From the NCBI RefSeq assembly GCF_046105845.1, contig NZ_CP151004.1: a stretch of DNA of 64,000 bases; one strand, written 5' to 3'. Position numbers and translations under genes: made by a program. This document shows positions 60,692 to 63,810 of the stretch, one piece after another; the stretch's first letter is position 1; every line of letters begins with the position of its first letter. The notes beneath the pieces were generated by a model. That model was not told the origin of the DNA and ran no database searches. It saw nothing but the letters and a program-made list of their open reading frames with translations. Source of the stretch: Escherichia coli (GTDB lineage Bacteria > Pseudomonadota > Gammaproteobacteria > Enterobacterales > Enterobacteriaceae).

Positions 60692-62670
<1,979 letters not shown>

Positions 62671-62672
<2 letters not shown>

Positions 62673-63810
62673 GTCAGAGCCCCTCGATCTCAATCAGTTA
62701 GCGCAAAAAATTAAACAGTGGGGGCTGGAACTGGGCTTTCAGCAGGTAGGTATTACCGATACCGATCTCAGCGCGTCCGAGCCCAAACTGCAAGCATGGC
62801 TGGACAAACAATACCACGGCGAAATGGACTGGATGGCGCGTCACGGTATGCTGCGTGCTCGTCCTCACGAATTATTGCCCGGTACGCTGCGCGTGATCAG
62901 CGTGCGGATGAATTACCTTCCTGCTAACGCCGCATTTGCCAGCACGCTGAAAAATCCCAAACTCGGCTATGTTAGCCGTTATGCGCTGGGCCGTGACTAT
63001 CACAAGCTTCTGCGCAACCGACTCAAAAAGCTGGGCGAGATGATTCAGCAACATTGTGTTTCGCTGAATTTTAGACCGTTTGTCGATTCTGCGCCTATTC
63101 TCGAGCGCCCGTTAGCTGAAAAAGCAGGACTTGGCTGGACAGGTAAGCACTCACTTATCCTCAATCGCGAAGCCGGTTCGTTCTTCTTTTTAGGCGAATT
63201 GCTGGTCGATATTCCGCTGCCCGTGGATCAACCAGTCGAGGAAAGATGCGGTAAATGCGTGGCCTGTATGACGATTTGCCCGACCGGTGCCATCGTCGAG
63301 CCATATACCGTAGATGCTCGCCGCTGCATTTCTTATCTGACGATAGAACTGGAAGGGGCAATCCCGGAAGAGTTGCGACCGTTAATGGGAAATCGTATTT
63401 ATGGTTGCGATGACTGCCAGCTTATCTGCCCGTGGAATCGCTATTCGCAACTCACTACAGAAGACGATTTCAGCCCGCGTAAGCCGCTACACGCTCCGGA
63501 ACTCATTGAGTTATTCGCCTGGAGCGAAGAGCAGTTTTTAAAAGTCACGGAAGGTTCGGCGATTCGCCGTATAGGTCACCTGCGTTGGCTGCGTAATATC
63601 GCCGTAGCATTAGGCAATGCCCCCTGGGATGAAACGATTTTGACAGCGCTGGAAAGTCGTAAAGGTGAGCACCCACTTCTCGATGAGCACATAGCGTGGG
63701 CGATTGCGCAGCAAATCGAGAGGCGAAATGCGTGCGTGGTCGAAGTGCAATTACCGAAAAAACAGCGTCTGGTTCGGGTGATTGAAAAAGGGTTACCGCG
63801 TGACGCCTGA
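62671..63810 (+). CDS. queG: epoxyqueuosine reductase
   Basis: Start trimmed to [25 protein letters not shown]… (379 aa); 4Fe-4S ferredoxin Cys motifs (CGKCVACMTICPTGA, CDDCQLICPWN). Confidence 0.9.

What the first reader, a model, noticed from the sequence alone, without database searches (positions are those of the whole stretch)
62670..62673. Divergent nnr and queG start codons overlap within a CATG tetramer
With the starts that give the expected protein lengths, the nnr ATG (minus) and queG ATG (plus) share two bases, leaving no intergenic DNA; both promoters must lie inside the opposite coding region. The alternative nnr start (MKKNP…, 15 bp in) would relieve the overlap.
Basis: seen in the sequence. 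Interest (0 to 1): 0.25.

Follow-up and report, generated by a model that had tools for sequence, protein, structure and literature searches.

The report
Overlapping divergent nnr–queG start codons
Two E. coli housekeeping genes that point away from each other really do share two bases of their start codons, and each gene's promoter lies inside the other gene; the arrangement is genuine and conserved, but it is already annotated and catalogued.

Summary
CATG at 62670-62673 holds the queG ATG (+, 62671-62673) and the nnr ATG (-, 62672-62670), a 2-base overlap. RefSeq annotates it the same way in K-12 and other E. coli. The overlap is real and maintained: 31 Enterobacterales loci keep the same CATG. 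The proposed downstream nnr start (Met6) is a start codon in only 15 of those 31. ATG1 has the good Shine-Dalgarno (-7.2 against -3.2 kcal/mol). Pectobacterium, where the genes are separated, keeps the peptide MTDH through synonymous changes in all three codons.

Both promoters do lie in the opposite gene. An extended -10 (TGgTATACT, 62631-62639) is written in nnr codons 12-14. A TAAAAT -10 (63073-63068, minus) is written in queG codons 133-135. Both sit 7 nt upstream of published RNA-seq 5' ends and in troughs of synonymous variation, with rare ATA and AGA codons retained.

Published data already show a roughly 413-nt antisense overlap of the two transcripts, RNase III-derived dsRNA, and queG-nnr listed as a divergent excludon. 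Verdict: a real but known arrangement, of low interest. No direct N-terminal or initiation-profiling data were found.

The parts
62670..62673 (.). CATG tetramer shared by the two start codons. The queG ATG is 62671-62673 (+) and the nnr ATG is 62672-62670 (-); bases 62671-62672 are shared.
   Evidence: Identical RefSeq annotation. Conserved in 31 Enterobacterales loci.
62671..63810 (+). queG CDS (tRNA epoxyqueuosine(34) reductase, 379 aa).
   Evidence: ORF. TIGR00276 at 510.8 bits against a cut-off of 200. RefSeq annotation.
61125..62672 (-). nnr (yjeF) CDS, the bifunctional NAD(P)HX epimerase/dehydratase, 515 aa counted from ATG1.
   Evidence: ORF. NF007856 at 1027 bits, matched from residue 1. 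RefSeq annotation.
62631..62639 (+). Extended -10 element of the queG promoter, TGgTATACT. It is written in nnr codons 12-14 (AGT ATA CCA on the minus strand). There is no recognisable -35.
   Evidence: Sequence. It lies 7 nt upstream of the published queG transcript 5' end. nnr codons 12-14 show about zero synonymous diversity, with rare ATA or TTA kept. TGNTANNNT is found upstream of queG in 66 of 80 loci against 3 of 80 controls, including genomes where nnr is not adjacent. The codons drift where nnr is uncoupled from queG.
62647..62670 (+). queG 5' leader of about 24 nt (U-rich, no Shine-Dalgarno). It is antisense to nnr codons 1-9.
   Evidence: The Conway et al. overlap boundary 4392114 (U00096.2), tabulated in Huang et al. 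2020, maps to window 62647. A p19-captured queG-sense read covers 17 nt upstream of the AUG. SD duplex energy is -2.2 kcal/mol.
62680..62685 (-). nnr Shine-Dalgarno GAGGGG, the reverse complement of queG codons 4-5 (CCC CTC).
   Evidence: Duplex with the anti-SD is -7.2 kcal/mol; only 6% of ATGs in the window reach -6. queG codons 4-8 are nearly invariant at synonymous sites.
62655..62657 (-). Alternative nnr Met codon (Met6, MKKNP...). It is not supported as the main start.
   Evidence: This codon is ATG in 8, TTG in 5, GTG in 2 and a non-start codon in 16 of 31 loci. SD duplex energy is -3.2 kcal/mol.
62691..62693 (-). Upstream in-frame TTG, the start of the mechanical 522-aa ORF. Rejected as a start.
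   Evidence: No SD (+1.3 kcal/mol). It is not a start codon outside Enterobacteriaceae.
63068..63073 (-). -10 element TAAAAT of the nnr (superoperon) promoter. It is written in queG codons 133-135 (AAT TTT AGA).
   Evidence: It lies 7 nt upstream of the published nnr-side transcript 5' end. queG codons 131-135 have synonymous diversity 0.18 against a baseline of 0.51, and rare AGA is kept in 17 of 22 loci.
62673..63060 (-). Long nnr 5' leader of about 388 nt, antisense to queG codons 1-130.
   Evidence: The Conway promoter coordinate 4391701 (U00096.2) maps to window 63060.
62647..63060 (.). Region where the queG and nnr transcripts are complementary (about 413 nt). It is the source of RNase III-derived dsRNA.
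   Evidence: From Huang et al. 2020: p19 cluster S-361 at 4391754-4392109, Lybecker dsRNA locus MS-212 at 4391717-4392100, and Conway overlap length 413. ExcludonFinder lists queG-nnr as a divergent excludon.

Best explanation
The two annotated start codons are both real, so nnr and queG genuinely overlap head to head by two bases (CATG). The arrangement works because every initiation signal of each gene is written into the first codons of the other gene.

queG is transcribed from an extended -10 promoter (TGgTATACT, no usable -35) that is encoded by nnr codons 12-14. This gives a roughly 24-nt U-rich leader without a Shine-Dalgarno.

nnr is the first gene of the nnr-tsaE-amiB-mutL... transcription unit. 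It is transcribed from a TAAAAT -10 encoded by queG codons 133-135. This gives a roughly 388-nt leader whose Shine-Dalgarno (GAGGGG) is the reverse complement of queG codons 4-5.

The two promoters therefore face each other about 413 bp apart. The two mRNAs are complementary over that stretch, including both start codons and the nnr SD, and published data show that RNase III-cut double-stranded RNA arises there.

Shown here or in the data I read: the coordinates, the annotation, the conservation, the synonymous-site footprints, the transcript ends and the dsRNA. Inferred: that these -10 motifs are the active promoters, that ATG1 is the start used in vivo, and that the antisense overlap has any regulatory effect.
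For: - Sequence and annotation.
- Conservation of the CATG overlap in 31 Enterobacterales loci.
- ATG1 over Met6: SD -7.2 against -3.2 kcal/mol. Codon 6 is a start codon in 15 of 31 loci. Pectobacterium keeps MTDH with ACA GAT CAC, synonymous in all three codons, after separation from queG. The only indel in the segment is 12 nt, in frame.
- queG promoter: TGNTANNNT in 66 of 80 loci against 3 of 80 controls, fixed at -40, and present even where nnr is not adjacent. nnr codons AGT-ATA/TTA-CCA are invariant in the overlap loci but drift in the uncoupled ones.
- nnr promoter: the second-deepest synonymous trough of queG is at codons 124-135, with rare AGA retained.
- Both -10 elements lie 7 nt upstream of the transcript boundaries 4392114 and 4391701, which map to window 62647 and 63060. 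K-12 and the window are identical there.
- dsRNA and excludon listings.
Against: - I found no direct evidence for the Nnr N-terminus. There is no E. coli Nnr structure. There was no nnr or queG entry in the supplementary files held as text for the N-terminomics paper. The INRI-seq supplements gave only one irrelevant nnr mention, and no supplements were held for the Ribo-RET preprint.
- Two of the three bases of nnr ATG1 are fixed by the queG ATG anyway, so conservation of ATG1 alone is weak evidence.
- Low synonymous variation in the first ~10 codons is common in bacterial genes generally, so the troughs at codons 1-10 are not specific to this overlap.
- The transcript ends come from RNA-seq operon mapping quoted second-hand, in the supplement of Huang et al. 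2020. They are not 5'-triphosphate-specific TSS mapping, and neither promoter has a recognisable -35 (one search found no canonical promoter).
- One MAG (L018) has a frameshift that makes MKKNP the only possible start.
Confidence: 0.85

Rival explanations
1. The overlap is an annotation artefact. Nnr really starts at the downstream Met6 (MKKNP, 62657), which leaves 13 nt of non-coding DNA between the two genes.
For: An in-frame ATG exists 15 nt downstream in E. coli, Citrobacter and a few others. The conserved YjeF_N domain model begins only at residue 17, so the first 16 residues are not needed for a domain match. Long annotated divergent overlaps are typically 5' mis-extensions (Palleja 2008). 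In MAG L018 only this start is open.
Against: Codon 6 is not a start codon in 16 of 31 loci (AAG, GAA, CTG, GAG and others), and those species have no other start before the conserved S-L/I-P-H motif. Its SD is weak (-3.2 against -7.2 kcal/mol). MTDH is kept in Pectobacterium through synonymous changes. The only indel in the segment is in frame.
Confidence: 0.06
2. Both nnr starts are used in E. coli, giving two isoforms that differ by five residues. The overlap is real, but the shorter form is also made.
For: In Escherichia and Citrobacter both ATGs are present, 15 nt apart. ATG2 has a marginal SD-like match (-3.2 kcal/mol).
Against: There is no conservation of the second start and no data showing initiation there (searches found nothing). 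Close downstream AUGs are common by chance.
Confidence: 0.08
3. The -10-like motifs are conserved only because of protein-level constraint on Nnr (S-I/L-P-H) and QueG (S-L-N-F-R). The real promoters lie elsewhere.
For: L-P is conserved in Nnr even where nnr is not next to queG. Neither motif has a -35. The transcript ends are from RNA-seq, not TSS-specific data.
Against: The conservation is at synonymous sites and uses rare codons (ATA, TTA, AGA). The queG motif persists at the same distance in genomes where no nnr lies upstream (Photorhabdus, Xenorhabdus, Proteus, Pseudoalteromonas, Photobacterium). The Nnr codons drift once uncoupled. Both motifs sit 7 nt from independently reported transcript ends.
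Confidence: 0.05

Closest known systems
Short divergent (head-to-head) CDS overlaps in prokaryotic genomes (Lillo & Krakauer 2007, PMC2174442; Palleja et al. 2008, PMC2478687)
   Same: Two divergently transcribed genes overlap at their 5' ends by a few bases, so SD, start codon and promoter are forced into the partner's coding sequence. These papers report this class as rare: 331 divergent overlaps among about 15,000 overlaps in 58 genomes, and 1% of well-characterised overlaps.
   Different: Many annotated divergent overlaps are start-codon errors, and Palleja et al. judged all those over 60 bp to be so. This one is 2 nt, conserved across Enterobacterales, and supported by comparative evidence for both starts.
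Divergent excludons, i.e. overlapping 5' regions of divergent operons processed by RNase III (Listeria excludon concept; E. coli catalogues in Huang et al. 2020, PMC7373196, and ExcludonFinder 2025, PMC12288877)
   Same: Face-to-face promoters give transcripts that are complementary over about 413 nt. dsRNA from exactly this stretch was captured by p19 and by dsRNA antibody. queG-nnr is listed among 16 divergent excludons of E. coli.
   Different: In classic excludons a long UTR of one operon covers a functionally opposed neighbour, and mutually exclusive expression has been shown. Here no functional antagonism or reciprocal expression has been demonstrated, and the coding sequences themselves abut.
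Extended -10 (TGn-TATAAT) sigma-70 promoters that work without a -35 element (established knowledge)
   Same: The motif is TGgTATACT, with a poor -35 (tctgcg at 17-bp spacing) and a transcript end 7 nt downstream.
   Different: The element lies wholly inside the coding sequence of the divergent gene, and it constrains that gene's codon choice (rare ATA/TTA).
Internal promoters of the amiB-mutL-miaA-hfq-hflX superoperon inside upstream coding regions (work of Tsui, Winkler and colleagues; recalled from my own knowledge, not checked here)
   Same: Promoters embedded in coding DNA in the same gene cluster.
   Different: Those promoters lie in same-strand upstream genes. Here the promoter of the cluster's first gene lies in an opposite-strand gene.

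Membership tests
Genuine divergent CDS overlap | Both start codons are the ones actually used. | tested here: inconclusive
   Comparative and SD evidence strongly favour ATG1 of nnr and the ATG of queG. No direct N-terminal or initiation-profiling data were found.
Genuine divergent CDS overlap | The overlap is conserved in phase and length across species. | tested here: met
   The same CATG overlap is present in 31 Enterobacterales loci.
Divergent excludon | Transcripts from opposite strands overlap at their 5' ends. | tested here: met
   Published data read here: Conway overlap 4391701-4392114 (413 nt), Lybecker dsRNA MS-212 and p19 cluster S-361. ExcludonFinder listing.
Divergent excludon | RNase III processing of the duplex. 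| tested here: met
   Paired 21-22-nt p19-captured reads from both strands, including reads across the CATG. This is published data, not my own experiment.
Divergent excludon | Reciprocal (mutually exclusive) expression of the two partners, with a functional consequence. | not testable with these tools
   I found no expression or mutant data bearing on this.
Extended -10 sigma-70 promoter (queG) | A TG at -15/-14 followed by a hexamer with A at position 2 and T at position 6. | tested here: met
   TGgTATACT at 62631-62639. The motif is conserved in 66 of 80 loci.
Extended -10 sigma-70 promoter (queG) | A transcript 5' end 5-9 nt downstream. | tested here: met
   The boundary maps to 62647, 7 nt after the hexamer. 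It is an RNA-seq boundary, not TSS-specific.
Extended -10 sigma-70 promoter (queG) | Promoter activity depends on the motif. | not testable with these tools
   This needs mutagenesis or reporter assays.
Nnr (NF007856) and QueG (TIGR00276) | The whole-protein score exceeds the curated cut-off. | tested here: met
   Nnr scores 1027 bits against a cut-off of 703. QueG scores 511 bits against a cut-off of 200.

The most novel reading that the evidence does not exclude
The CATG overlap with face-to-face embedded promoters is a selected antisense switch rather than mere compaction. Pairing of the two mRNAs buries both start codons and the nnr SD and triggers RNase III. Expression of queG (queuosine-34) would then be reciprocally coupled to the promoter-proximal part of the nnr-tsaE-amiB-mutL-miaA-hfq unit, which carries two other tRNA anticodon-loop modification genes (tsaE and miaA). 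This coupling would have been maintained since before the divergence of Enterobacterales.
Probability: 0.2. Interest if true: 0.4.

Novelty: already known. Interest (0 to 1): 0.15.

Why it matters
It matters little beyond annotation quality. It shows that this rare head-to-head overlap is not a start-codon error. It also gives a clean textbook-style example of regulatory signals written into a neighbour's codons, where rare ATA and AGA codons are kept because they spell -10 hexamers on the other strand. Anyone recoding or deleting the 5' end of nnr or queG, or the first 135 codons of queG, in E. coli should expect polar effects on the partner gene. For queG deletions that means effects on the nnr-tsaE-amiB-mutL-miaA-hfq unit.

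Tried and rejected
- The consensus promoter/terminator scan of 62300-63100 found nothing. It requires a -35 hexamer, and both promoters here lack one.
- Direct evidence for the Nnr N-terminus was sought without success. TRAINSPOTTER N-terminomics supplements had no hit. No supplements were held for the Ribo-RET preprint. INRI-seq supplements gave only an irrelevant off-target listing for nnr. The PDB has no E. coli Nnr; the best match is T. maritima TM0922, aligned from residue 61.
- Conway et al. 2014 supplements are not held, so the transcript ends are quoted from the Huang et al. 2020 supplement.
- An Rfam scan of 62000-64000 at E<=1 found no known RNA family.
- The upstream TTG (62693, 522-aa ORF) was rejected as a start: it has no SD and is not conserved.
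- I asked whether the whole antisense-overlapped body of queG is under extra synonymous constraint. It is not: codons 11-123 score 0.49 and codons 136-379 score 0.51.
- I looked for a promoter-proximal nnr promoter within queG codons 6-15 and found no convincing -10.

Full report
**Observation.** The window around the finding reads ...cattgtatggtccgtCATGtcagagcccctcgat....
- The queG ATG is 62671-62673 on the + strand.
- The nnr ATG is the reverse complement of CAT at 62670-62672, so two bases are shared.
- With these starts QueG is 379 aa and Nnr is 515 aa.
- The alternative Met (MKKNP) is at 62657-62655, 15 nt into nnr.
- The window is E. coli: 99.9% identical to NZ_CP062824, and matched in 5425 of 5426 complete genomes.
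- RefSeq annotates the same 2-nt overlap in every record I opened, including K-12 MG1655 (queG 4392928-4394067 minus, nnr 4394066-4395613 plus).
- Gene identities are secure. Nnr matches NF007856 at 1027 bits from residue 1, and QueG matches TIGR00276 at 511 bits.

**Is the overlap real or a start-codon artefact?** I fetched 80 loci encoding QueG relatives from one-genome-per-species contigs and located nnr in them by tblastn. In 31 Enterobacterales loci Nnr residue 1 aligns at queG start +1, which is the same CATG. The genera are Escherichia, Citrobacter, Superficieibacter, Pseudescherichia, Pseudocitrobacter, Enterobacter, Kluyvera, Mangrovibacter, Serratia, Pantoea, Yersinia, Rahnella, Hafnia, Budvicia, Acerihabitans and Edwardsiella.

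Conservation of ATG1 is weak evidence on its own, because two of its three bases are fixed by the queG ATG. Four other observations decide the matter.
1. Species such as Yersinia (MTDHSKKQIGASLPHSVF) have no other start before the conserved S-L/I-P-H-S-V-W/F motif.
2. The SD duplex energy with the 16S 3' end is -7.2 kcal/mol for ATG1 (GAGGGG, 62685-62680), -3.2 for Met6 and +1.3 for the upstream TTG at 62693. Only 6% of all ATG trinucleotides in the window reach -6.
3. In Pectobacterium betavasculorum nnr starts 146 nt away from queG, so the queG start no longer constrains it. The N-terminus is still M-T-D-H, but it is spelled ATG ACA GAT CAC, with synonymous changes in all three codons. That is the signature of a translated peptide.
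4. The only length change between ATG1 and the downstream conserved motif is +12 nt, in L008 and L009, which is in frame.

One exception is MAG L018, where a 1-nt shift closes the ATG1 frame and leaves MKKNP as the start. This may be an assembly error.

For queG, the ATG at 62671 is the only canonical start between the mapped 5' end and the conserved QueG sequence. I conclude that both starts are most likely correct. I found no direct N-terminal or initiation-profiling evidence.

**Where are the promoters?** The consensus scan found none, because it requires a -35.

queG side:
- By eye there is an extended -10, TGgTATACT, at 62631-62639. It lies inside nnr codons 12-14 (AGT ATA CCA on the minus strand).
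- The motif TGNTANNNT occurs upstream of queG in 66 of 80 loci, against 3 of 80 same-size control segments. It is almost always 40 nt before the queG start.
- It is present in genomes where nnr is not adjacent at all: Photorhabdus, Xenorhabdus, Proteus, Photobacterium, Moritella and Pseudoalteromonas. It is therefore a queG signal and not a by-product of Nnr.
- Nnr codons 12-14 have essentially zero synonymous diversity in the 31 overlap loci (AGT in 29 of 31; ATA in 17 and TTA in 14; CCA in 27 of 31), against a gene-wide mean of 0.55.
- Where nnr is uncoupled from the queG promoter the same residues are spelled TTG CCT, TTG CCG, AGC TTA CCT, TTA CCG or CTA ACA.

nnr side:
- The two deepest synonymous troughs in the whole of queG are codons 1-10 (0.19) and codons 124-135 (0.27-0.30). 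The baseline is 0.49-0.51.
- Codons 131-135 are TCG CTG AAT TTT AGA. The rare Arg codon AGA is kept in 17 of 22 loci.
- The reverse complement of AAT TTT A is TAAAAT (63073-63068 on the minus strand).

**Published transcript data agree.** The supplement of Huang et al. 2020 (mBio, PMC7373196) gives the following for p19-captured dsRNA cluster S-361, in U00096.2 coordinates.

| Item | Value |
|---|---|
| Genes and overlap type | yjeS, yjeF; 5' overlap |
| p19 cluster coordinates | 4391754-4392109 |
| Lybecker et al. dsRNA locus MS-212 | 4391717-4392100 |
| Conway et al. plus-strand unit | promoter 4391701, terminator 4408049 |
| Overlap with the divergent operon | 413 nt (4391701-4392114) |

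- The individual read sequences fix the coordinate frame. One example is CAUGACGGACCAUACAAUGAAG with its partner UCAUUGUAUGGUCCGUCAUGUC, which together span the CATG.
- The nnr A of ATG is 4392089, which equals 4394066 minus the 1977-nt offset between the U00096.2 and U00096.3 coordinates at this locus.
- Mapped to the window, the queG transcript begins at about 62647 (24-nt leader) and the nnr transcript at about 63060 (about 388-nt leader).
- Each end lies 7 nt downstream of the -10 hexamer I had identified, and K-12 is identical to the window there.
- ExcludonFinder (NAR 2025, PMC12288877) lists queG-nnr among 16 divergent excludons of E. coli. It lists yjeV-queG-nnr as a non-contiguous operon.

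**Mechanism.** Two face-to-face promoters about 413 bp apart are each written into the other gene's codons.
- queG mRNA has a short U-rich leader without an SD (-2.2 kcal/mol).
- nnr mRNA has a long leader whose SD is the reverse complement of queG codons 4-5.
- The two mRNAs are fully complementary across both initiation regions, and RNase III-derived duplex fragments from that stretch are abundant in published data.
- Whether this has regulatory meaning, through transcriptional interference or mutual occlusion and cleavage, is not shown.
- The body of the overlap (queG codons 11-123) carries no extra synonymous constraint: 0.49 against 0.51. Selection acts on the signals and not on the duplex as such.
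- Low synonymous variation in the first ~10 codons is also a general property of bacterial genes, so only the internal troughs (nnr codons 12-14, queG codons 131-135) are specific evidence.

**Comparison with what is known.** Divergent CDS overlaps are the rarest class in prokaryotes. Lillo & Krakauer 2007 counted 331 among about 15,000 overlaps in 58 genomes. Palleja 2008 counted 457 among 42,055 well-characterised overlaps, and judged all those over 60 bp to be misannotations. This case is a short, conserved and apparently genuine member of that class. Its transcript overlap is already in four published catalogues. It is not a new kind of thing.

**Verdict.** The alternative start is unlikely. 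The arrangement is already known, both from annotation and from the transcript-overlap catalogues. The codon-level footprints, where rare ATA and AGA are retained because they spell -10 hexamers on the other strand, are a tidy illustration but not surprising. Interest 0.15.

Noticed in passing
window 63793-63846 (-): A 17-codon ORF (MRFYFYSQAVDESGVTR) corresponds to annotated yjeV. It converges on queG and overlaps its last 18 nt. RefSeq annotates it as a hypothetical protein, and ExcludonFinder lists yjeV-queG as a convergent excludon.
   Followed up: partly
window 61125-61153 (-): The 3' end of nnr overlaps the tsaE start by 29 nt on the same strand. The last ~10 nnr codons also show very low synonymous diversity, although few sequences align there.
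   Followed up: no
L027 2355-2500 and L030 2293-2455 (Pectobacterium, Brenneria): nnr and queG are separated by about 146 nt here. Upstream of queG there remains a decayed copy of the nnr 5' end: tgtggcccatcATG, reading M-M-G-H-R-N-stop, plus the -10. L030 shows a 34-nt direct repeat at 74% identity spaced 129 nt apart. This suggests the overlap was resolved by a tandem duplication of the junction.
   Followed up: partly
L018 about 2480-2500 (MAG, soil Proteobacteria): A 1-nt shift puts a stop after M-T-D-H, so only the MKKNP start is open. Yet tatggtccgtcATG is unchanged. This is either an assembly error or a recent frameshift.
   Followed up: no
window 63118-63153 (queG codons 150-161): There is a third, weaker trough of synonymous diversity (0.33-0.36) over KAGLGWTGKHS. 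No promoter-like motif is evident on either strand, and it is unexplained.
   Followed up: no
L008 and L009 (Escherichia sp. ESNIH1, Pseudescherichia vulneris), about 2440-2500: A 12-nt insertion lengthens both the Nnr N-terminus (MTDHTLKSRLNKNRTTIPH) and the queG leader. It moves the extended -10 from -40 to -52.
   Followed up: partly
L072 about 370-378 (MAG Gammaproteobacteria, outside Enterobacterales): An nnr ORF extension (MGIIGLEKPHSLTQ) also begins in a CATG shared with the queG ATG. The 2-nt overlap may therefore occur outside Enterobacterales as well.
   Followed up: no
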